The notes below the pieces were generated by a model. The model saw only the letters and a list, made by a program, of their open reading frames with translations. It was not told the origin of the DNA and did not search any database. DNA of 64,000 nucleotides from Candidatus Hydrogenedens sp. (GTDB lineage: Bacteria > Hydrogenedentota > Hydrogenedentia > Hydrogenedentales > Hydrogenedentaceae). The stretch spans positions 32,001 through 96,000 of the forward strand of contig JBMFRC010000009.1 of the NCBI GenBank assembly GCA_049968235.1. The letters run 5' to 3'. The position numbers were made by a program, and so were the translations under genes. Positions 46,121-59,072 of the stretch are shown here, in pieces (position 1 is the first letter of the stretch; each line of letters begins with the position of its first letter).

Positions 46121-49100
46121 TCATAATGATTCCAATCGTTTTAATTCCTTTCCCAGTACATTATCACTCCCAAATAACGCTATATGCTCCTTTATCATAT
46201 TTACTGCTTCCTTTACCCTGTGATGTTGAGATAGGAAAGTCGAATACTTCAGGATAAGTGAAACATCTCCGGGGTAGAAATCTATAAACGCTTTAATTGT
46301 TTGTTCCGCAGATTCGATATAGCCTAATTGTTCGCATACATAAATATATAGGTCAAGAATCCCCGGATAATCATAACTGTTCGAAAAGGCATAATTTAAG
46401 TGTTTATAAGATTCGTGCATATTCCCTGATTGTAAATATCCCTGTCCCATGGCAAGGTGCAGACGAATATTCTCAGGTTCTTCTTGGAATACTTTTCCCA
46501 ATAATTCTAACGCTGTTTGCGTTTGATTCATTGCTAATAATAGCAGTCCATAATCTATATGTAATTCATTATTTTTTTCAATTTCTAATGCTTTCAGATA
46601 ACATTCTTGTGCTTTTACAAGGTTACCCGTGTGAGCATACGCTTTCCCTTCAATACTGTATCGTTTCCATAGAGGCAAGTCGCTTTCTGTTTTTGCAAGT
46701 TCAAATAACAGGTCCGTTCTCCCTGCTTCCAATAATTTGCGAACCTGTTCATTGATTTCATTTATATCCGAAGGGAGTTTTTGTGCAATAACGATATATT
46801 GGAAGGTGCGGAACACCTCATATTCTTCGTCGCTGATTTTATCAATACAAATTTTACCCATGTGTAAATTCCCATTTTCATCACGGGGTATTATGTCCTC
46901 AGATGCTATGGAAAGAGGTCCAATAGCATTAATCAGGAGACCTGTTTTACGAATAAATTCTTGTAAAGTATCTCTCGTGTAAAATTTCAAATGAGTTATA
47001 TCCTGAATTCCGGAATCACGATAGTCCCACCTCCCAAGAGATAAACCAAAAATAACACCCCAATATTGGACATTAGGAATGCTGATGATAACATAACCAT
47101 ACGGTTTTAGATAACGAATTAAATTTCGCAATGCTTTCTCGGGGTGTTCTGTATGTTCTAATACATCACAACAGGTAATTACATCAAAATAATCATTTTC
47201 AAATGGGAAATCATCCTTCTCAATATTTCCAATAAAAACTTTATCTAAAACCTTTTTGGCAATTTCAGCAATGTCAGGTACAATTTCTATTCCTACCACT
47301 TCCTCCACACCCAATTCACGTTTCATTGCTAATCCAAAATTCCCTGTAGCACAGCCAATATCGAGAACCTTTTTTGTCCCATCGGGAATATATTTTAAGA
47401 CCTCTCTTCTCTCAGAAGAGTAATAGTTTATAGGTTTAATTTCCAATCGTTTCGCTTTTGTTGTATCAATCTTGAAAATTTCCTCTACCTTCTTAATAAT
47501 CTGTTGGCACCTATGGTAATAAGTATGACTCTCTAATACCTTTTGTTGTCCCTGCCTTGCGATTTGCTCTCGTTCCTCTTTATGCTCCAGATAATACCGA
47601 ATTTTTTCAATTAAGTCCTTTTCATTTTCATAAATAACAAGATCTTTACCATCCTCAAACAATTCCAGAATACTATCTGCAGGGTCTGTAACTAGTAAAG
47701 CACCTCCTGCCATACCTTCAAATACTCTCATGTTTAAATCGTAATTAATTGCAGAATTCACAACAATTTTACTTCTTGAATACACTTCCCCCATTTCAAG
47801 AGGCCATTTTTTACCAATATAATGATTTGGAAATATTTCGGCTACTTTCATTAATAACCTTCTTCTTTTATCTCCTTCATCAGGCGATAAACTACCTACA
47901 TAAGAAACATCTATGTCACGAGACAATTCTTTTTGGGGATATAGTTCAGGACAACATGCAAGAGGTAGCCAGAAGACATAACGGACACCCTGCTCCTTAA
48001 AAAGTTTGACATGACTTTGTTGAGCCAGAAACACAATGTCAAAATGCTTTGCTATTTCCAACCGTGTTTGAAAGTCCAGGTGGGTATCAATAAGATACGC
48101 CACACGAGGAATATTGAGCATGTCTATCATAGGGTCAACTGTTTTAAGACCGGAATCAACATAGATATAAAAATCTGATGGATATCCTGATGGAATACCT
48201 GCTAAAAGATTCTCTATGCGTTTATCGCCAAAGGAGGTAGGAATCCTTTGCGGAGGATATGGTGGAGGATTTTGAAATCCCCACTTATATAACAAATCTT
48301 CAGGACATCGAAAACCCGATGTTATAACATCATGGTCTTTTTCAAAGGCAAATTCAAAATATCGGGCTGTTGTGTGGGGTGAAGTTATATAATCTAATAT
48401 AATGCGATAGTGCTTTTTCGCTGTTGATGGTTTTGTTATCTGAATAGAAGTGGTTTCTTTTCCACTTTGTTTCAATATTATCTTCTGCCAATTATCAACA
48501 AATTGAGATATAGGAAATTTCTTTTGAACAGTTTCTCTACCTCGTGTTCCTATTTCCCTGGCTAAGTCCGGATTTCCTAAGAGGAGTTCCAGATATTTGC
48601 GTAGCTGTGCTGGGTCAAAAGAAGTAAAGCCATCTACTCCATTTGTAATAGGAGAAGAACGATTGTTTAGAGCAACCACTGGCATACCACAAGCCATTGC
48701 CTCTAATGTAGAAAGATTATATCCATCTTCAAATTCCTGACGGGTGATATGTAATAGACAGCGGTTCAAACGATATGCAGACAGCAATTCTTCAAAGTTT
48801 ATAGATGGCTTTGAATTTTCAACCCCCGGATTTTCTCCCACAATAATATTGGGTAATCCCTTGCAGAGAGCCTCCTGTAATGGGAAATCAAACATCCAGT
48901 TCCGCACCTGCATATAATTGCCTACTCGCAAAATTACTTCTTTACTCCCCGCATAGCCTCCATATTCTTCTATATCAATTCCGGGTAGAACCACATACCC
49001 CGGATAACCATAATCATCTCTTTTAGAAGGGGAAATAAATACGAAAGTGAATCGTTCAGATAGGATATTTATGACCTTCTCAAAATTATTAACAACAAAA

Positions 49101-49426
49101 ACATCGTTCTTTGGGAGTGTTGTTTTCAGATAGGTTTTTCTGTTATGACATACAAGAATTTTAGGGCAATTTGCTTCGCGAATATCCCAGGCATTTGTTT
49201 CATTATGTGCAATAACAATATCATAATAGCCTTTAAAAACTCGTTCCCGCCACTCATTTTCAGGGACTTCATGTAAATTTTCAGGTATAGGTCGAAATTC
49301 CGTTTTCCACTTTCGAGCAAGCAGTCCCTCGCTATATAACCCCAAATCCATCTCAAACCCTGTTTTTGCCATCAAACACATGTAAGGCTCATGAAAATTA
49401 AAGGTTAAGATTTTAAGTTGTCCCAT
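46121..49426 (-). CDS. 1101-aa multidomain protein: GT-B (GT4-like) glycosyltransferase + CgeB-family glycosyltransferase + class I SAM-dependent methyltransferase + C-terminal TPR repeats
   Basis: ..EDGYNLSTLEAMACGMPVVA.. (GT4 C-terminal motif); ..NMRVFEGMAGGALLVTD..KVLESHTYYHRCQQII.. (CgeB); ..KVLDIGCATGNFGL..FDVITCCDVLEHTEHPEKAL..LKPYGYVIISIPN.. (methyltransferase motifs I-III); TPR-like helical repeats in the last ~250 aa. Confidence 0.7.
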   Translation of the reverse strand: MGQLKILTFNFHEPYMCLMAKTGFEMDLGLYSEGLLARKWKTEFRPIPENLHEVPENEWRERVFKGYYDIVIAHNETNAWDIREANCPKILVCHNRKTYLKTTLPKNDVFVVNNFEKVINILSERFTFVFISPSKRDDYGYPGYVVLPGIDIEEYGGYAGSKEVILRVGNYMQVRNWMFDFPLQEALCKGLPNIIVGENPGVENSKPSINFEELLSAYRLNRCLLHITRQEFEDGYNLSTLEAMACGMPVVALNNRSSPITNGVDGFTSFDPAQLRKYLELLLGNPDLAREIGTRGRETVQKKFPISQFVDNWQKIILKQSGKETTSIQITKPSTAKKHYRIILDYITSPHTTARYFEFAFEKDHDVITSGFRCPEDLLYKWGFQNPPPYPPQRIPTSFGDKRIENLLAGIPSGYPSDFYIYVDSGLKTVDPMIDMLNIPRVAYLIDTHLDFQTRLEIAKHFDIVFLAQQSHVKLFKEQGVRYVFWLPLACCPELYPQKELSRDIDVSYVGSLSPDEGDKRRRLLMKVAEIFPNHYIGKKWPLEMGEVYSRSKIVVNSAINYDLNMRVFEGMAGGALLVTDPADSILELFEDGKDLVIYENEKDLIEKIRYYLEHKEEREQIARQGQQKVLESHTYYHRCQQIIKKVEEIFKIDTTKAKRLEIKPINYYSSERREVLKYIPDGTKKVLDIGCATGNFGLAMKRELGVEEVVGIEIVPDIAEIAKKVLDKVFIGNIEKDDFPFENDYFDVITCCDVLEHTEHPEKALRNLIRYLKPYGYVIISIPNVQYWGVIFGLSLGRWDYRDSGIQDITHLKFYTRDTLQEFIRKTGLLINAIGPLSIASEDIIPRDENGNLHMGKICIDKISDEEYEVFRTFQYIVIAQKLPSDINEINEQVRKLLEAGRTDLLFELAKTESDLPLWKRYSIEGKAYAHTGNLVKAQECYLKALEIEKNNELHIDYGLLLLAMNQTQTALELLGKVFQEEPENIRLHLAMGQGYLQSGNMHESYKHLNYAFSNSYDYPGILDLYIYVCEQLGYIESAEQTIKAFIDFYPGDVSLILKYSTFLSQHHRVKEAVNMIKEHIALFGSDNVLGKELKRLESL

Positions 49427-49465: not shown

Positions 49466-50104
49466 TTAGGTTGTTTTAATAATATATTGGATTGCCAATT
49501 GTTTTAACTGACCCACGATTTCAGGTTCTTTTTCTGCAAGAGGAGCTAATTCATATTCCAGCAAGTCCCCAAGACCAATACAATCGTTATTTTCGAGAGA
49601 TTTATATGCTTCCTCAAGAACATGATTCAATTCGTCATGATGTTCTTTTATCTTCCTTATAATAGGATTCTCTTCCGTTACATGGGAACTCAATATATTG
49701 ATTATAAGTGCCTCTCTTTTTTTAATTTCACTCCATATCTCCGAAAGTTTCTGAAAAGGGTCAAATCCTTCATCCGGATTTTCACTCTGAAATACCCGAG
49801 CAATTTCACAACATAAATCACTTAATTCCGGTGAATATAATTCCAAATCCGCAATACCTTCCTCCACCAATTGGTAAATTGGATAGGTATTAATTTCTAA
49901 TGTCCGTATATTAGAGATATTCATTTCTTGAATAGATTCTAATGACCTACCGGGATATACTTCTTGCTCATTAACTCTTAACTTTACCATTGCCAGTTGT
50001 TGACTATTAAGAAAATTCATAATCTCGTTCAGAGCCGATTGAAGTGTATCCGGCGAATTGGAAAATTGAAATCCTTTTACTCCATCAATGAGCACTTCCA
50101 TCAC
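49466..50104 (-). CDS. Hypothetical acidic protein co-transcribed downstream of csrA
   Basis: 212-aa ORF overlapping the csrA stop by ~20 nt; 39 nt upstream of the big GT/MTase gene; no recognisable domain. Confidence 0.4.
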
Positions 50105-50336
50105 GGGGGTCTCCTTTGTTGGGTTGGAAAACGGGAATATCCTTCGGGGGTTCTACCCGTGCTGCCTCTTCATTTTCCGCTTTGATTGATAGATATACCT
50201 CTTTCCGATGAACAGGAATAGAACGCGGTGCTTCTATCCCTATTTTGACCTGATTTTCCCGTAATTCAAGCACTTTGATTTCGATATTATCGCCAATCAT
50301 TATGCTTTCATCTTCCTTACGCGTAAGCACAAGCAT
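50085..50336 (-). CDS. csrA: Carbon storage regulator CsrA (flagellin translation regulator)
   Basis: [48 protein letters not shown] is canonical CsrA; AGGAGG RBS; start 1 nt after the fliW stop. Confidence 0.9.
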
Positions 50337-50337
50337 A

Positions 50338-50796
50338 TTAGACCTCCTGTCTATTAGTTGGTTGTTCATTTTGGGGTTGCGCAAGGAACCATTGAACAGG
50401 GTAATCCGTTCTGTCCAATACCATTTGCTTTGCTAACCTTGTTTTTGTATTTATTACAATGGGGGCTCTTAAATTTGTCCGGATTTTGGTCGGGTCTTCC
50501 GGAACCACAAGTAATGTATATATGGAAATCTCCTGAGGAGAATCGGCTTGTAATTCATGTAAATCCTGGGGAGTAAAAGAAACCTGATAATCTGGCAAAA
50601 CCTGCAAAGGTTCTAACAAAAGAAAAGCCAATGCACCATCTTCTATAGACTGAAGCCACCAAAGAGGGCTATCTTTAGGTCCTGGCAATAACATAAACTT
50701 CTGACAATTCTGAAATCCTAAAATAGGTTTTACAAATAGAAGAATTTGATTCTCATCAATTTCTATCTCACCGAATCGTGTTGTTTGTAGTTTCAT
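50338..50796 (-). CDS. fliW: Flagellar assembly factor FliW
   Basis: ..[46 protein letters not shown].. and ..[20 protein letters not shown].. match FliW. Start taken at internal MKLQTT; the ORF track extends upstream to 50943. Confidence 0.85.
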
Positions 50797-51460
50797 ATAA
50801 TTCTGTTCATTCCTTTTTGTTTTCAGTATGCAATATTTTATTTTACAATAACAACTCATTATTATAAAAATGTGTAATATCAAATAAACATTTGTAAAAT
50901 ATATCGATATATAATATAATTTACACTTAAATGTTAACATCAAGGAAGTAGTGTGTTTGGAGAAGAAAACCAGATATTGATAAAGGAGATGTTAAGATGC
51001 GACATACTGAAAAAGTAAATGATTAAAAAGAATATAATGCGTTTAAAGAACTTATAAAAGAAAACTTATCAAGGCAGTGGATGATGAGGATTATGAACGG
51101 TTGAAGTTCATATTCTCTATGTTAGAAATGCTTTTCCAGATAAAGGAAAGACTTAATATTTCAGAGAAAGAGAGCAATGAGTTTGATGAACAAGAATTAG
51201 AAGTGATAGAGACGGAAACAGGCAAAGATGTTAAAAAGAACAGAAAGAAAAGAAGTAAACCCTCAGAGGATAAAAAGGATGAAATTCAAGAAACGAAAGA
51301 AGATATGGGTAAAGAAAATATAATTGAAGAAGAGGAAGATGTAATTAAAAAAGAAGCGGTAACATAGGAAGAGGAGAAATCATCAAAGAAAAAGCAATCT
51401 CCACCAGAGAAATTAGCTCGCGGTTTAAAAACACCTGAAAGAGCCTATGTCCTACCGGTA

Positions 51461-51868
51461 GTGGATTCCTTAATGGAATTTGGGGGAACTGCTCCTCGAA
51501 AAGAAGTTGTCACAAGGGTATTTGAAAAAATGAAACATATCTTAAAAGATTATGATTTAGAACCCATGTCATACAATAAATATGTCCCTCGCTGGAAAGA
51601 TACTTTACATTGGGTAAGATTACACTTACTTGAAAGGGGAATCCTTGAGAAAGGAACTGAAAAAGGTATTTGGACTTTAACAGAATATGGTAAAGCCTAT
51701 TACGCTATGCACAAAGATAGAACAGAAGAAAAGAAAGAGGTTGATATTCCTCCATACTCCGAAAAAAGTGAAGAAATGACTAGTGAAGGAACTTTTTCTG
51801 CTCCCGAAAAGCAGGAAGAAAATATAGAACATAACATTAGTGAACCAAGAGATATCTTAAATCAGTAG
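51461..51868 (+). CDS. Winged-helix (Mrr_N-like) domain protein, probably N-terminally truncated; in frame with upstream ORF 51077..51367 across a single TAG
   Basis: ..YVLPVVDSLMEFGGTAPRKEVVTRVFEKMKHIL..VPRWKDTLHWVRLHLLERGILEKGTEKGIWTLTEYG.. matches the Mrr N-terminal wHTH. The first conserved strand (AYVLPVV) lies upstream of the GTG at 51461. TAG at 51365-51367 is in frame. Confidence 0.45.
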   Translation: MDSLMEFGGTAPRKEVVTRVFEKMKHILKDYDLEPMSYNKYVPRWKDTLHWVRLHLLERGILEKGTEKGIWTLTEYGKAYYAMHKDRTEEKKEVDIPPYSEKSEEMTSEGTFSAPEKQEENIEHNISEPRDILNQ

Positions 51869-51954
51869 ATAGAAATTATAGAATAAAAAATAAATCCCGA
51901 TAATTTTACCTCTTTCCCAGAAATACAATCCTTTATTGACATGAAAGTATATCC

Positions 51955-51991
51955 ATAAAAAAGCCTCTCGTAAAAAGAGAGGCTTTTTTAT
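51955..51991. terminator. Bidirectional rho-independent terminator
   Basis: AAGCCTCTC-gtaaaaa-GAGAGGCTT flanked by A6 upstream and T6 downstream; serves the +strand wHTH gene and the -strand tRNA. Confidence 0.55.
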
Positions 51992-52077
51992 GGTGCCCGG
52001 GAGGAGAATTGAACTCCTACCCCATTTCTGGGACCAGATCCTTAGTCTGGCGCGTCTGCCATTTCCGCCACCCGGGC
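51991..52077 (-). tRNA. tRNA-Leu (type II, long variable arm) with apparent anticodon AAG
   Basis: Revcomp folds as GCCCGGG/CCCGGGC acceptor, Leu-type D-arm (UGGCGGAAAUGGCAGACGC), anticodon stem CCAGA/UCUGG with loop CUAAGGA, variable arm CCCAGAAAUGGG, T-arm AGGAG-UUCAAUU-CUCCU, discriminator A and encoded CCA. The annotation track put a spurious ORF (51857..52081) here. Confidence 0.7.
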
Positions 52078-52185
52078 GCATATATTTGAAAAGTGTTTAA
52101 ATTCTATAACAAACAGCAGAAAAATTTAAAGTTAAGGTTCCTTTTAATGTCAGACCTATCGTACTCGTTAGTTTCGTCAGATTTA

Positions 52186-52440
52186 TCAAAGCATAGGTTC
52201 ATGTCTCCCTTTACCAGGACCATTCGGATGACGAAGACAGAAATTCGTAGTCATGCCGGCAATAGAACCGAACTTCTTCCCACAATATTTGCAAATATAT
52301 GTCTCTTTCTCCTCTCCCTCATAAGGTACATGTCTCCCCTTACCGGGACCATTCGGATATCTTATGCATGCGGAAGATGTTAAAGACTGGACACTGGTTG
52401 CTTGTTTCCCACAATATTTACAACGATAAATAGTAGTCAT
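52186..52440 (-). CDS. Small Cys-rich protein with two tandem zinc-ribbon-like repeats
   Basis: 84 aa. Repeat 1 ..YRCKYCGKQATSVQSLTSSACIRYPNGPGKGRHVP.. and repeat 2 ..YICKYCGKKFGSIAGMTTNFCLRHPNGPGKGRHEP... The repeat is also visible at DNA level. 18 nt downstream of the nucleotidyltransferase gene. Confidence 0.5.
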   Translation of the reverse strand: MTTIYRCKYCGKQATSVQSLTSSACIRYPNGPGKGRHVPYEGEEKETYICKYCGKKFGSIAGMTTNFCLRHPNGPGKGRHEPML

Positions 52441-52458
52441 AATTATCTTCCCTGTTAA

Positions 52459-53187
52459 TTAGAGTTTAATACCATGTTCTTTAGCAACGAGAATATTAGA
52501 ACGGAGCAGTGCTTCGAAACTACCACAATCTGCCCACCAACCTTCTAAAACTTCATAAGTCATTGTTCCCCGTCGAATATACTCATTATTTACATCTGTT
52601 ATTTCCAATTCACCACGTGCACTGGGTTTCAATGTCTTACAAATGTTAAACACATCCGCATCATACATATATATTCCGATGACTGCATAATGGGTCGGTG
52701 GAACTTTAGGTTTTTCTATAATCTCTTTCACTTTTCCATTCTCTACTATAGCAACCCCAAATTCCTGGGGATTGGGGACTTCTTTTAAAAAAATCTTTGC
52801 ACCGCAATCTTGTTTTTCAAAATCATCTACTGCATTCTTGATACTACCCTGCGTAAAGTTATCACCAAGGATAACTACCACTTTATCTCCACCAACAAAT
52901 GGTTCTGCAAGTTTAAGAGCATGAGCAATTCCCCCCTCTGTTTTCTGATAAGTATAATGAAGTTGATGTAATCCAAAATCTTCACCATTCCCTAATAACC
53001 GAAGAAAATCTCCCGCATTATTCCCACCTGTAACTATCATAATATCTTTAATACCCGCATCTACAAGTGTTTGTATAGGATAAAAAATCATAGGTTTGTT
53101 ATATACAGGCAATAAGTGCTTATTAGTTACGCGAGTTAATGGTAATAATCTTGTTCCTAAACCTCCAGCCAGGACAACACCTTTCAT
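52459..53187 (-). CDS. Sugar-1-phosphate nucleotidyltransferase (short RmlA/NTP_transferase family)
   Basis: ..MKGVVLAGGLGTRLLPLTRVTNKHLLPV.. signature; 242 aa. Confidence 0.8.
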   Translation of the reverse strand: MKGVVLAGGLGTRLLPLTRVTNKHLLPVYNKPMIFYPIQTLVDAGIKDIMIVTGGNNAGDFLRLLGNGEDFGLHQLHYTYQKTEGGIAHALKLAEPFVGGDKVVVILGDNFTQGSIKNAVDDFEKQDCGAKIFLKEVPNPQEFGVAIVENGKVKEIIEKPKVPPTHYAVIGIYMYDADVFNICKTLKPSARGELEITDVNNEYIRRGTMTYEVLEGWWADCGSFEALLRSNILVAKEHGIKL

Positions 53188-58420: not shown

Positions 58421-58702
58421 TTAGGGTTTTATTGTCATTTTTAAAAACCTTTTGCATGTAGGGGCATCACAACGAAAGTCAATAGGAATTACATTACCTT
58501 TTCGAGCCTGGTTAATAATATCTAAATATATCTGTTTTACAGTCATATTTTGAATAAAATCAAATAAATTTTTGCCCAAAATCTTCTTGGATATAATTTC
58601 CTCCCCAAAATTATTTAAAGCGAAACGGTCCCATTCTTCATTGACAAAAATAATGTTTTTTTCTGTATCAATTTTATATTCAATTGGGTTCATGTTAGTC
58701 AT
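58421..58702 (-). CDS. Small PAS-like domain protein (hypothetical)
   Basis: 93 aa from ATG (MTNMNPIEYK..) with AAGGA upstream; ..IIFVNEEWDRFALNNFGEEIISKKILGKNLFDFI.. PAS-like. The longer track ORF 58421..58954 runs into tRNA-Cys and is rejected. Confidence 0.35.
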   Translation of the reverse strand: MTNMNPIEYKIDTEKNIIFVNEEWDRFALNNFGEEIISKKILGKNLFDFIQNMTVKQIYLDIINQARKGNVIPIDFRCDAPTCKRFLKMTIKP

Positions 58703-58807
58703 CCTTTTATGGGTGTATAATACCCGGTTTATATAAATATTCTCTATATTTGAATTATGCCACCTTTTCTTTGTAAAATTAAACCACCATGATAATGGTG
58801 GCGGCAT

Positions 58808-58882
58808 GGCGGCATGGCCAAGTGGTAAGGCAGAAGCCTGCAAAGCTTCCATTCCCCGGTTCGAATCCGGGTGCCGCCTCCA
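58808..58882 (+). tRNA. tRNA-Cys (GCA)
   Basis: Acceptor GGCGGCA/UGCCGCC, anticodon stem GAAGC/GCUUC with loop CUGCAAA, T-arm CCCGG-UUCGAAU-CCGGG, encoded CCA. Confidence 0.85.
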
Positions 58883-58895
58883 TCTATTTCGTCGT

Positions 58896-58979
58896 GGGCG
58901 AGTGGTGGAATAGGAATACACGACGGACTTAAAATCCGTTGGCCGTAAGGCCATGCGGGTTCGATTCCCGCCTCGCCCA
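58896..58979 (+). tRNA. tRNA-Leu (UAA), type II
   Basis: Acceptor GGGCGAG/CUCGCCC, anticodon stem ACGGA/UCCGU with loop CUUAAAA, long variable arm GGCCGUAAGGCC, T-arm GCGGG-UUCGAUU-CCCGC; CCA not encoded; followed by T6. Confidence 0.8.
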
Positions 58980-59072
58980 CTTTTTTATTTTTACCTCTCT
59001 TTTTATATAATCTTTGACAGAGGGTTTTCCCAGCCTAACATATAAAAATTAAGTCCAAAAGGATATACCGAA

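What the first reader, a model, noticed from the sequence alone, without database searches (positions are those of the whole stretch)
51077..51868. Mrr_N-like winged-helix gene split by a single in-frame amber codon from a K/E-rich upstream ORF
ORF 51077..51367 (GTG start, KE-rich, low complexity) and ORF 51461..51868 share a frame, separated only by TAG at 51365-51367. The wHTH domain matches the Mrr N-terminal fold. Its first conserved element (AYVLPVV) lies between the TAG and the first available start (GTG 51461), with no ATG/GTG/TTG in between, so a complete domain requires translation through or from upstream of the TAG. Possible explanations are a recent nonsense mutation (pseudogene), programmed read-through, or a sequencing error. 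The locus is flanked by a tRNA gene and a bidirectional terminator.
Basis: seen in the sequence. Interest (0 to 1): 0.5.

Follow-up and report, generated by a model that had tools for sequence, protein, structure and literature searches.

The report
Recently broken winged-helix gene (pseudogene)
The two ORFs are fragments of a single ~290-codon DNA-binding-protein gene that is intact in related bacteria but here carries an amber stop plus two further disabling mutations, so it is most likely an ordinary, recently inactivated gene and not a case of programmed read-through.

Summary
ORF 51077-51367 and ORF 51461-51868 share a frame and are separated only by TAG 51365-67. The Mrr_N winged-helix match begins 5 codons upstream of the first usable start.

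The upstream ORF is not a separate gene. Ten Hydrogenedentota orthologues (274-403 aa), where enough flanking DNA is held in the same fliW-csrA / tRNA-Leu neighbourhood, encode both halves as one protein: helical hairpin, K/E-rich disordered linker, Mrr_N winged helix, acidic tail.

The ancestral start (ATG 50997, with an AAGGAG ribosome-binding site) is followed by an in-frame TAA (51024-26) and a 1-nt deletion (~51056).

All three lesions are identical in two other MAG assemblies of the same species (99.9% identity, distinct SNPs), so they are not base-calling errors. TAG is a normal stop in this window (5 of 51 long ORFs). Orthologues have a sense codon at the amber site.

Best reading: a recent pseudogene fixed in this population (~0.7). 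The lesions are young, because neither domain shows relaxed constraint.

Minor rival (~0.17): the winged-helix half is still made from an internal start, a TTG present in the sister strains but TTA here.

Interest is low.

The parts
50892..50920 (+). Promoter-like site (TTGTAA-17-TATAAT, 10 of 12 matches), about 77 nt upstream of the ancestral start.
   Evidence: This is a consensus match only. One sister assembly (L002) has a SNP at 50894, inside the -35-like hexamer.
50984..50999 (+). Shine-Dalgarno AAGGAG (50984-89) and the ancestral start codon ATG 50997-99.
   Evidence: The SD and ATG are conserved in the two closest orthologous loci, L003 and L004. It is the best class of SD match among 41 genes of the window; none of the internal candidate starts has an SD.
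50997..51026 (+). First remnant segment, MRHTEKVND, ending in lesion 1: in-frame TAA at 51024-26.
   Evidence: tblastn: P0004 GDSKMTHNNKENDIKDYDAF aligns with window GDVKMRHTEKVND*KEYNAF. Orthologues have ACG, ATA, TTG or ATG at this codon.
51027..51059 (+). Remnant of hairpin helix 1 (KEYNAFKELIK), in the frame of ATG 50997 and not in the frame of the finding's ORFs.
   Evidence: N-domain residues 1-11 match at 51027-51059, frame 3.
51055..51058 (+). Lesion 2: a 1-nt deletion in a short A-run (ATAAAAG) that shifts the reading frame into that of GTG 51077.
   Evidence: In the DNA alignment all four orthologues carry one more base here. The frame switch is seen by tblastn. The run is only A4, and no A8 run lies in the gene.
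51056..51364 (+). Hairpin helix 2 (KAVDDEDYERLKFIFSMLEMLFQIKERL) plus the K/E-rich disordered linker. It contains the finding's ORF 51077-51367.
   Evidence: In the AF2 model of orthologue P0002 the helices span 2-24 and 27-55 and residues 54-136 are disordered. The same 96-aa ORF is annotated 'hypothetical protein' in three NCBI MAGs.
51365..51367 (+). Lesion 3: the in-frame amber codon TAG that the finding reported.
   Evidence: It aligns with CAT (His) in L003 and with variable sense codons in the other orthologues. It is identical in L001 and L002.
51368..51868 (+). Still-open 3' part: end of linker, conserved KL.[KR]GLKTP motif, Mrr_N winged helix (Pfam match nt 51446-51700), acidic tail, stop TAG 51866-68.
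   Evidence: The wHTH in the AF2 model has pLDDT 73-85, and Foldseek returns only winged-helix domains.
51425..51427 (+). Leu codon of GLKTP: TTA here, TTG in the two sister assemblies. That TTG is why they carry a 147-aa gene call (P0001).
   Evidence: Orthologues alternate freely between TTA and TTG at this codon.
51461..51463 (+). GTG, the first canonical in-frame start after the TAG in this strain. It has no SD and falls inside helix 1 of the winged helix.
   Evidence: It corresponds to V146 of P0002, where helix 1 spans 138-151.
51869..51940 (+). Probable former coding tail. It is colinear with the coding tail of L003; the window's TAG 51866-68 and TAA 51884-86 both align with CAG in L003.
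   Evidence: Tail length varies among orthologues, so this may be tolerated variation rather than damage.
51953..51993 (.). Symmetric hairpin flanked by an A-run and a T-run: a bidirectional terminator shared with the convergent tRNA.
   Evidence: It is conserved in L003.
51991..52077 (-). tRNA-Leu (anticodon AAG), the convergent downstream neighbour. It is not a suppressor tRNA.

Best explanation
Window 50997-51868 is one gene that has recently been inactivated.

Its intact orthologues in Hydrogenedentota encode a 274-403 aa protein with four parts. An N-terminal two-helix hairpin is inferred to be an oligomerisation module. A variable K/E-rich disordered linker follows. Then comes a conserved KL.KGLKTP motif plus a Mrr_N-type winged helix, inferred to bind DNA. 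The protein ends in an acidic disordered tail. The gene is a stand-alone transcription unit, transcribed divergently from fliW-csrA and ending at a terminator shared with tRNA-Leu.

In this species the gene carries three disabling lesions: TAA at codon 10, a 1-nt deletion about 10 codons later, and the reported TAG at 51365-67.

Translation from the native SD and ATG therefore stops after 9 codons. The 96-codon 'K/E-rich ORF' and the 135-codon wHTH ORF are leftover reading frames of the same gene.

Shown: the lesions, their reproducibility in three assemblies, the continuity of the orthologues, the conserved synteny, and normal use of TAG as a stop.

Inferred: that no functional product is made, and what the ancestral protein does.
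For: 1. Orthologues are continuous. P0002-P0011 cover up to 100% of the conceptual read-through (E from 3e-91 to 3e-43). The repaired window translation aligns end to end with them. Apart from the window lineage, every lineage whose locus holds both domains has them in one frame, except L005/L014.

2. There are three lesions, placed by tblastn and by DNA alignment against L003-L006.

3. The position is orthologous. In all four loci with enough flank (L001, L002, L004, L005), fliW and csrA lie upstream and a Zn-ribbon gene and an NTP-transferase gene downstream; DUF8042 is also upstream in the three that reach that far. The tRNA-Leu flank is alignable in L003 and L004.

4. The lesions are not sequencing errors. 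L001 and L002 are 99.92% and 99.91% identical to the window, with distinct SNP sets, and carry all three lesions. The only difference inside the gene is A/G at 51427. The 96-aa fragment is on three NCBI contigs. The other 50 long ORFs fill 86% of the window without such breaks.

5. TAG is not reassigned. It ends 5 of 51 long ORFs, and none of the three tRNAs in the window reads UAG.

6. No good way remains to express the fragments. The only strong SD serves the 9-codon remnant. GTG 51077, codon 51425 and GTG 51461 have no SD. GTG 51461 removes 8 of the 14 residues of wHTH helix 1. GTG 51077 removes the whole first hairpin helix.

7. No 8-base A-run that could support transcriptional slippage lies in the gene; the run at the frameshift is only four bases.
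Against: 1. All three lesions lie in the 5' 43% of the gene, and 166 codons containing the whole wHTH remain open. This is roughly p~0.09 if lesions fall at random (my estimate from the lengths).

2. Window-branch substitutions in the wHTH core are 10 synonymous and 8 non-synonymous, the same pattern as in the intact sister L003 (12 and 9). No relaxation is detectable. This fits very recent inactivation, but it also fits continued selection on the wHTH.

3. Two stops imply a neutral divergence of about 3.5% (wide Poisson interval, 172 stop-creating paths). That is somewhat more than the unchanged constraint pattern suggests.

4. 13 of 41 genes in the window have no SD, so SD-less initiation is common in this organism.

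5. Two sister strains have a TTG that would give a complete wHTH.

6. Short natural forms with only a basic tail and the wHTH exist in the wider family, e.g. P0026 at 143 aa.

7. Expression was not measured.
Confidence: 0.7

Rival explanations
1. Gene truncation or fission. The N-terminal hairpin and linker are dead, but the winged-helix half is still translated on its own from an internal start (TTG 51425 in the sister strains; GTG 51461, or re-initiation after the TAG, in this strain). It retains a DNA-binding role.
For: - 166 codons after the TAG are free of stops and frameshifts, while 3 lesions lie upstream.
- wHTH-core substitutions on the window branch are 10 synonymous and 8 non-synonymous, indistinguishable from the intact sister (12 and 9) and far from the neutral ~1:3.
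- L001 and L002 have TTG at 51425, giving a 147-aa product with a complete helix 1.
- Short relatives with a basic tail plus wHTH exist in the wider family (P0026, P0039).
- About a third of the genes here lack an SD.
Against: - In this strain the codon is TTA, and the only canonical start cuts 8 of the 14 residues of helix 1.
- TTA/TTG alternates freely at this Leu codon among intact orthologues, so the SNP looks like ordinary synonymous drift.
- Even the TTG product would lack the invariant K, L and G of the KL.KG motif.
- There is no SD, and no promoter-like site on the + strand inside the gene.
- The N-terminal hairpin shows the same absence of decay (10 synonymous, 4 non-synonymous) although it cannot be translated. 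The conservation signal therefore only says that the lesions are young.
- Every complete orthologue found, and relatives such as P0015, P0018-P0020 and P0023, keep the hairpin and the wHTH in one chain.
Confidence: 0.17
2. Programmed recoding. The TAG is read through (or decoded by a suppressor tRNA, or reassigned), so that the K/E-rich ORF and the wHTH ORF are made as one regulated fusion protein.
For: The frames match and the domain needs upstream translation. The stop is reproducible in three assemblies.
Against: - The amber codon is not conserved: CAT in L003 and other sense codons elsewhere.
- TAG terminates 5 of 51 long ORFs in the window.
- No suppressor tRNA is present in the window.
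- A read-through product from GTG 51077 would still lack hairpin helix 1, because a TAA and a frameshift lie upstream.
- GTG 51077 has no SD.
- No Rfam element or recoding-type structure was found at the site.
Confidence: 0.02
3. Assembly or base-calling artefact. The real gene is intact, and the stops and the frameshift are errors.
For: The data come from MAGs. One lesion is a 1-nt indel in an A-run, a typical error class.
Against: - Two of the three lesions are substitutions that create stops.
- All three lesions recur in three assemblies that differ from one another at other SNP positions.
- The A-run is only 4 bases.
- The remaining 50 long ORFs of the 64-kb window are unbroken.
Confidence: 0.03

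Closest known systems
Pfam PF14338 (Mrr_N), the N-terminal winged-helix domain of Mrr-type (type IV) restriction endonucleases
   Same: The 3' ORF matches the domain above the gathering threshold (41 bits against 29.5) over profile positions 4-84 of 87. All 12 family members match it. The predicted fold is a winged helix.
   Different: There is no Mrr_cat nuclease domain or any other catalytic domain, only a disordered acidic tail. No PADLOC defence model matches the family consistently. The domain lies at the C-terminal side of a hairpin and linker, not at the N-terminus of an enzyme. This protein therefore shares the DNA-binding module of Mrr but is not a restriction enzyme.
An uncharacterised, widespread family of small proteins (~180-230 aa) with an N-terminal helical hairpin, a basic linker, a KKGL[KR]TPE motif and a Mrr_N winged helix. 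NCBI labels members only as 'winged helix-turn-helix domain-containing protein'.
   Same: The order of modules and the motifs are the same (DYE[KR].K hairpin, GL[KR]TPE, PRW...W, GIWE/GIW.LT..G). 673 50%-identity cluster representatives match at E<=1e-10, and some (P0015, P0042, P0103) align across hairpin and wHTH in one stretch.
   Different: The Hydrogenedentota members have a much longer K/E-rich linker (80-200 aa) and a long acidic tail. The window copy is broken. No function is known for either group: there is no NCBIfam model, and only a 16-bit sub-threshold hint to Sso10a chromatin proteins.
Ordinary bacterial pseudogenes created by nonsense and frameshift mutations
   Same: There are disabling lesions relative to intact syntenic orthologues. 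The fragments are annotated as separate small 'genes' (96 aa hypothetical plus 147 aa wHTH) in public records.
   Different: Nothing essential differs. The lesions are young enough that neither domain shows relaxed constraint.
Rescue of frameshifted genes by transcriptional slippage at long poly(A) tracts, as described in insect endosymbionts (recalled from my own knowledge, not checked in the paper library)
   Same: The gene is A-rich, and an independent break of the orthologue in L005 sits in an A8 run.
   Different: In the window the indel lies in an A4 run, no A8 run occurs in the gene, and two nonsense codons could not be rescued by slippage.

Membership tests
Pfam Mrr_N (PF14338) domain | A match to the profile HMM at or above the curated gathering score (29.5 bits). 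| tested here: met
   41 bits, E=2.2e-10, profile positions 4-84 of 87, on the translation of 51368-51865. 12 of 12 relatives match.
Pfam Mrr_N (PF14338) domain | Winged-helix fold. | tested here: met
   The AF2 model of orthologue P0002 has H-E-H-H-E-H at residues 138-237 with block-mean pLDDT mostly 73-85 (two blocks near 55). The Foldseek PDB hits are all winged-helix domains but weak (best E=9e-3).
Mrr / type IV restriction endonuclease | A C-terminal Mrr_cat (PD-(D/E)xK) nuclease domain joined to Mrr_N. | tested here: not met
   No Pfam family other than Mrr_N is consistently found in the window product or the 12 relatives; a weak CsgA match occurs in 2 of 12. The residues after the wHTH are predicted to be disordered.
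Hydrogenedentota hairpin-linker-wHTH family (defined here) | N-terminal hairpin motif (KEY.xFK..IK.E..KA[VI]D.ED.E..K...S.LE...Q.K), the KL.KGLKTP motif and the wHTH, all in the same locus. | tested here: met
   All the motifs are present at DNA level in the window.
Hydrogenedentota hairpin-linker-wHTH family (defined here) | Conserved genomic position: divergent from fliW-csrA, with tRNA-Leu, a Zn-ribbon gene and an NTP-transferase gene downstream. | tested here: met
Hydrogenedentota hairpin-linker-wHTH family (defined here) | A single uninterrupted ORF spanning the hairpin and the wHTH. | tested here: not met
   TAA 51024-26, a 1-nt deletion at ~51056 and TAG 51365-67 interrupt it. The locus is therefore a pseudogenised member.
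Pseudogene | Disabling lesions relative to intact orthologues at the syntenic position. | tested here: met
Pseudogene | The lesions are real: reproducible and not assembly errors. | tested here: met
   They are identical in three assemblies with different SNP haplotypes. Raw reads were not available.
Pseudogene | No functional product is made. | not testable with these tools
   This needs transcriptome, Ribo-seq or proteome data. Indirectly, no SD precedes the internal starts, and the products would have a truncated helix 1 or a truncated hairpin.
Programmed stop-codon read-through or stop-codon reassignment | The stop codon is conserved at the same position in orthologues. | tested here: not met
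   Orthologues have sense codons there: CAT in L003, and variable residues H, E or K in the alignment.
Programmed stop-codon read-through or stop-codon reassignment | TAG is not used as an ordinary terminator, or a cognate suppressor tRNA is present. | tested here: not met
   TAG ends 5 of 51 long ORFs. The three tRNAs in the window have anticodons AAG, GCA and TAA. The rest of the genome could not be examined.
Programmed frameshift or transcriptional slippage | A slippery heptamer or a long homopolymer run at the shift site, conserved in relatives. | tested here: not met
   The shift lies in ATAAAAG (A4). The orthologues are in frame there. No A8 run lies in the gene.

The most novel reading that the evidence does not exclude
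The locus is a gene caught in the act of fission. After the hairpin and linker were lost, the winged-helix module is still expressed alone. The TTA/TTG polymorphism at 51425-27 would then decide whether a strain makes a complete 147-aa wHTH protein (sister strains) or none, or only a truncated one (this strain). Such a natural on/off allele would affect an uncharacterised DNA-binding protein encoded next to fliW-csrA in all four loci with enough flank, and so could expose the function of a widespread unknown family.
Probability: 0.1. Interest if true: 0.35.

Novelty: new member of a known kind. Interest (0 to 1): 0.15.

Why it matters
The main value is as an annotation correction. Public records for this species list a 96-aa 'hypothetical protein' and a 147-aa 'winged helix-turn-helix domain-containing protein'. 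These are two fragments of one inactivated gene.

The result also removes a candidate for stop-codon recoding.

A modest by-product is a description of a Hydrogenedentota-specific protein (hairpin, long K/E-rich linker, Mrr_N wHTH) encoded next to fliW-csrA in every locus with enough flank. It belongs to a large, uncharacterised family of small Mrr_N-only proteins. The fact that one species has lost it shows that it is dispensable in at least that lineage.

Tried and rejected
- **Exact look-up of the 135-aa product.** Not on record. The window's own assembly evidently has no gene call for it.
- **NCBIfam on both halves and on wider relatives.** Nothing useful.
- **PDB sequence search with the family profile.** No hit at E<=1.
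- **PADLOC.** No consistent defence-system match.
- **Literature search for 'Mrr_N' and 'Hydrogenedentes flagella'.** No relevant paper; the first term matched unrelated acronyms.
- **Rfam at a permissive E-value over 50300-52500.** Only the tRNA, plus sub-threshold hits on the terminator hairpin.
- **Scans of genome and metagenome contigs.** Only about 10 lineages were found, none closer than 63% protein identity with an intact gene, so the lesions could not be dated with a near relative.
- **Idea that the TTA-to-TTG SNP is an adaptive new start.** Rejected as unsupported, because orthologues alternate between TTA and TTG at this codon.
- **Idea that SNPs are enriched in the locus as a sign of relaxed constraint.** 3 of 5 SNP positions fall in 23% of the compared length, p=0.08, not significant.
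- **Paralogue in the window.** None found.
- **Relative-rate and syn/nonsyn tests for decay.** No signal in either domain. They date the lesions as recent but cannot separate 'dead' from 'wHTH still used'.
Full report
**1. The observation**

The sequence is as described. ORF 51077-51367 (GTG start, 96 codons, ending in TAG 51365-67) and ORF 51461-51868 (GTG start, 135 codons) are in the same frame. No ATG, GTG or TTG lies in frame between them.

The upstream ORF is 39% K+E overall and 46% in its second half.

The translation that starts right after the TAG matches Pfam Mrr_N (PF14338) at 41 bits (gathering score 29.5, E=2.2e-10). The match covers residues 27-111, i.e. nt 51446-51700, and begins at the Y of AYVLPVV, five codons upstream of GTG 51461.

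The flanks are also as stated. tRNA-Leu(aag) lies at 51991-52077 on the minus strand. A symmetric A-run/hairpin/T-run lies at 51953-51993 (-27.2 kcal/mol, z=-7.4).

**2. The two ORFs are one gene**

I searched with the conceptual read-through product. This returned ten proteins of 274-403 aa that span both halves in a single polypeptide. The closest is P0002: 306 aa, 63% identity, 100% coverage, E=3e-91.

In a multiple alignment the repaired window sequence is colinear with all of them. The family architecture, from the alignment and an AlphaFold2 model of P0002 (hairpin block-mean pLDDT 60-77, wHTH mostly 73-85), is:

- a two-helix N-terminal hairpin (residues 2-24 and 27-55);
- a K/E-rich disordered linker of very variable length;
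- a conserved KL.KGLKTP motif;
- a winged helix (residues 138-237);
- a disordered acidic tail.

Foldseek against the PDB returns only winged-helix domains, all weak (best E=9e-3). Mrr_N is the only family found consistently, in all 12 relatives (a weak CsgA match occurs in 2 of 12), and there is no nuclease domain. The protein therefore carries the DNA-binding module of Mrr but is not a restriction enzyme.

**3.

The orthologues begin further upstream than GTG 51077, with M[KN]EYDAFKQFIK.E..KA[VI]DEED... In the window this stretch is in a different frame.

- ATG 50997 is preceded by AAGGAG at a spacing of 8. This is the best class of Shine-Dalgarno match among 41 genes of the window, and it is conserved in the two closest loci.
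- That ATG opens MRHTEKVND, followed by an in-frame TAA at 51024-26, and then KEYNAFKELIK.
- A 1-nt deletion in ATAAAAG at about 51056 then moves the reading into the frame of GTG 51077 (..RKLIKAVDDEDYERLKF..).

tblastn shows both pieces. P0004 GDSKMTHNNKENDIKDYDAFKNLVKREL aligns with window GDVKMRHTEKVND*KEYNAFKELIKENL. A DNA alignment with four orthologous loci shows the missing base, and shows ACG, ATA, TTG or ATG where the window has TAA. The reported TAG aligns with CAT in the closest locus.

The ancestral gene (50997 to at least 51868) therefore carries three disabling lesions. The 'K/E-rich ORF' is only its second hairpin helix plus linker.

In addition, the present stop TAG 51866-68 and a TAA at 51884-86 both align with CAG in L003, and 51869-51940 is still colinear with that orthologue's coding tail. 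Tail length varies among orthologues, so I do not count this as damage.

**4. Real, and in the orthologous place**

Two NCBI MAGs labelled Candidatus Hydrogenedens sp. hold contigs that are 99.92% and 99.91% identical to the window. These are GCA_049969095.1 (locus L001) and GCA_049971155.1 (locus L002), with 4 and 3 SNPs respectively and partly different SNP positions.

Over 50940-51480 they are identical to the window, including the TAA, the deletion and the TAG. The single exception is 51427, which is A here and G in both MAGs.

The 96-aa fragment is recorded on three NCBI contigs, the longest 132,912 bp.

All four loci with enough flank (L001, L002, L004, L005) show fliW and csrA upstream, and the 84-aa Zn-ribbon gene and an NTP-transferase gene downstream; DUF8042 is also there in the three that extend that far. 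The tRNA flank is alignable as well.

The remaining 50 long ORFs of the window are unbroken and cover 86% of it. A base-calling artefact is therefore very unlikely.

**5. Not recoding**

- TAG ends 5 of the 51 long ORFs in the window (TAA 38, TGA 8).
- The three tRNAs in the window do not read UAG.
- The amber codon is not conserved in any orthologue.
- Read-through of the TAG alone would give a product without hairpin helix 1, made from a GTG that has no SD.
- The frameshift site is an A4 run, and no A8 run lies in the gene, so rescue by transcriptional slippage is not plausible.
- Rfam finds nothing at the site.

**6. What can still be made**

Translation from the native SD and ATG ends after nine codons.

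In this strain the only canonical in-frame start downstream of the TAG is GTG 51461. It corresponds to V146 of P0002, inside wHTH helix 1 (138-151), so 8 of the 14 helix residues would be missing.

In the two sister strains the Leu codon of GLKTP is TTG, which explains their 147-aa gene call (P0001, MKTPERAYV...). Intact orthologues alternate freely between TTA and TTG at this codon, so the SNP looks like ordinary synonymous drift.

None of the internal candidate starts has an SD, although 13 of 41 genes in the window have none either.

**7. Age of the lesions, and the main rival**

With L004 as outgroup, the substitutions specific to each branch are:

| Region | Window (syn / nonsyn) | Intact sister L003 (syn / nonsyn) | Fisher p |
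|---|---|---|---|
| wHTH core, 103 codons | 10 / 8 | 12 / 9 | 1.0 |
| N-terminal hairpin, 43 codons | 10 / 4 | 3 / 12 | 0.009 |

Amino-acid distances to the outgroups show no acceleration in the wHTH domain, and at most about three extra differences in the 43-residue hairpin.

Both domains were therefore under purifying selection for nearly the whole branch, so the lesions are young. Because the untranslatable hairpin looks just as 'conserved' as the wHTH, this test cannot show that the wHTH is still in use.

Some points do favour residual use of the wHTH:

- All three lesions fall in the 5' 43% of the gene (about p=0.09 by length).
- Two stops correspond to a nominal 3.5% neutral divergence, given 172 stop-creating paths.
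- Short forms with a basic tail plus the wHTH exist in the wider family.

I give this rival about 0.17 and plain recent pseudogenisation about 0.7.

**8. Wider context**

A profile search of 1.84 billion cluster representatives shows that the Hydrogenedentota proteins are long-linker members of a large uncharacterised family. 673 representatives match at E<=1e-10. They are mostly 180-230 aa and have the same hairpin, basic linker, KKGL[KR]TPE motif and Mrr_N wHTH.

For these relatives Pfam reports essentially only Mrr_N (one sub-threshold Med29 match aside), and NCBIfam only a sub-threshold Sso10a hint.

Their function is unknown. By architecture I infer an oligomeric DNA-binding protein, either a regulator or a nucleoid-associated protein.

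One other Hydrogenedentota assembly (FWWL01007368.1, locus L005) has the orthologue split by a frameshift in an A8 run of the linker. This may be a second independent inactivation or a homopolymer sequencing error.

**9. Verdict**

This is an ordinary, recently inactivated gene in an uncultivated Hydrogenedens population. Its main use is as an annotation correction and as a pointer to an unstudied wHTH family. Interest is low (0.15).

Noticed in passing
P0014-P0160; sequences: There is a large uncharacterised family of small proteins, mostly 180-230 aa, with an N-terminal helical hairpin, a basic linker, a KKGL[KR]TPE motif and a Mrr_N winged helix. 673 50%-identity cluster representatives match at E<=1e-10. 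Pfam reports essentially only Mrr_N, and there is no NCBIfam model. The Hydrogenedentota proteins are its long-linker members.
   Followed up: partly
L005 4739-4746 (FWWL01007368.1, GCA_900175155.1; same contig as L014): The orthologous gene of another Hydrogenedentota assembly is split into an 89-aa and a 157-aa call by a frameshift in an A8 run of the K-rich linker. This is either an independent inactivation or a homopolymer sequencing error.
   Followed up: partly
window 51866-51940: The gene's present stop (TAG 51866-68) and a TAA at 51884-86 both align with CAG codons of L003. The 70 nt after the stop are still colinear with that orthologue's coding tail, so the acidic tail has also been shortened in this lineage.
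   Followed up: partly
window 52186-52440 (-): An 84-aa protein is made of two copies of a Y.CKYCGK...(C).R[YH]PNGPGKGRH motif (Zn-ribbon-like, with only faint Pfam hits). It sits at the same position next to tRNA-Leu in all four annotated loci with downstream flank (L001, L002, L004, L005).
   Followed up: no
window 50894 (L002 has A, window and L001 have G): One of the very few SNPs between the three near-identical assemblies falls in the -35-like hexamer (TTGTAA, 50892-97) of the best promoter-like site in the fliW / wHTH divergent intergenic region.
   Followed up: no
window 50338-50943 (-) and 49466-50336 (-): The mechanical ORF for fliW (201 aa from a TTG) is longer than the orthologous gene call of 152 aa (50338-50796). 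csrA (50085-50336) overlaps the start of the downstream DUF8042 gene (49466-50104) by 20 nt. A ~1100-aa glycosyltransferase/methyltransferase fusion (46121-49426) follows.
   Followed up: no
window 58421-58954 (-): A 177-aa mechanical ORF overlaps the tRNA-Cys and tRNA-Leu(taa) genes at 58808-58980 on the opposite strand. It is probably spurious.
   Followed up: no
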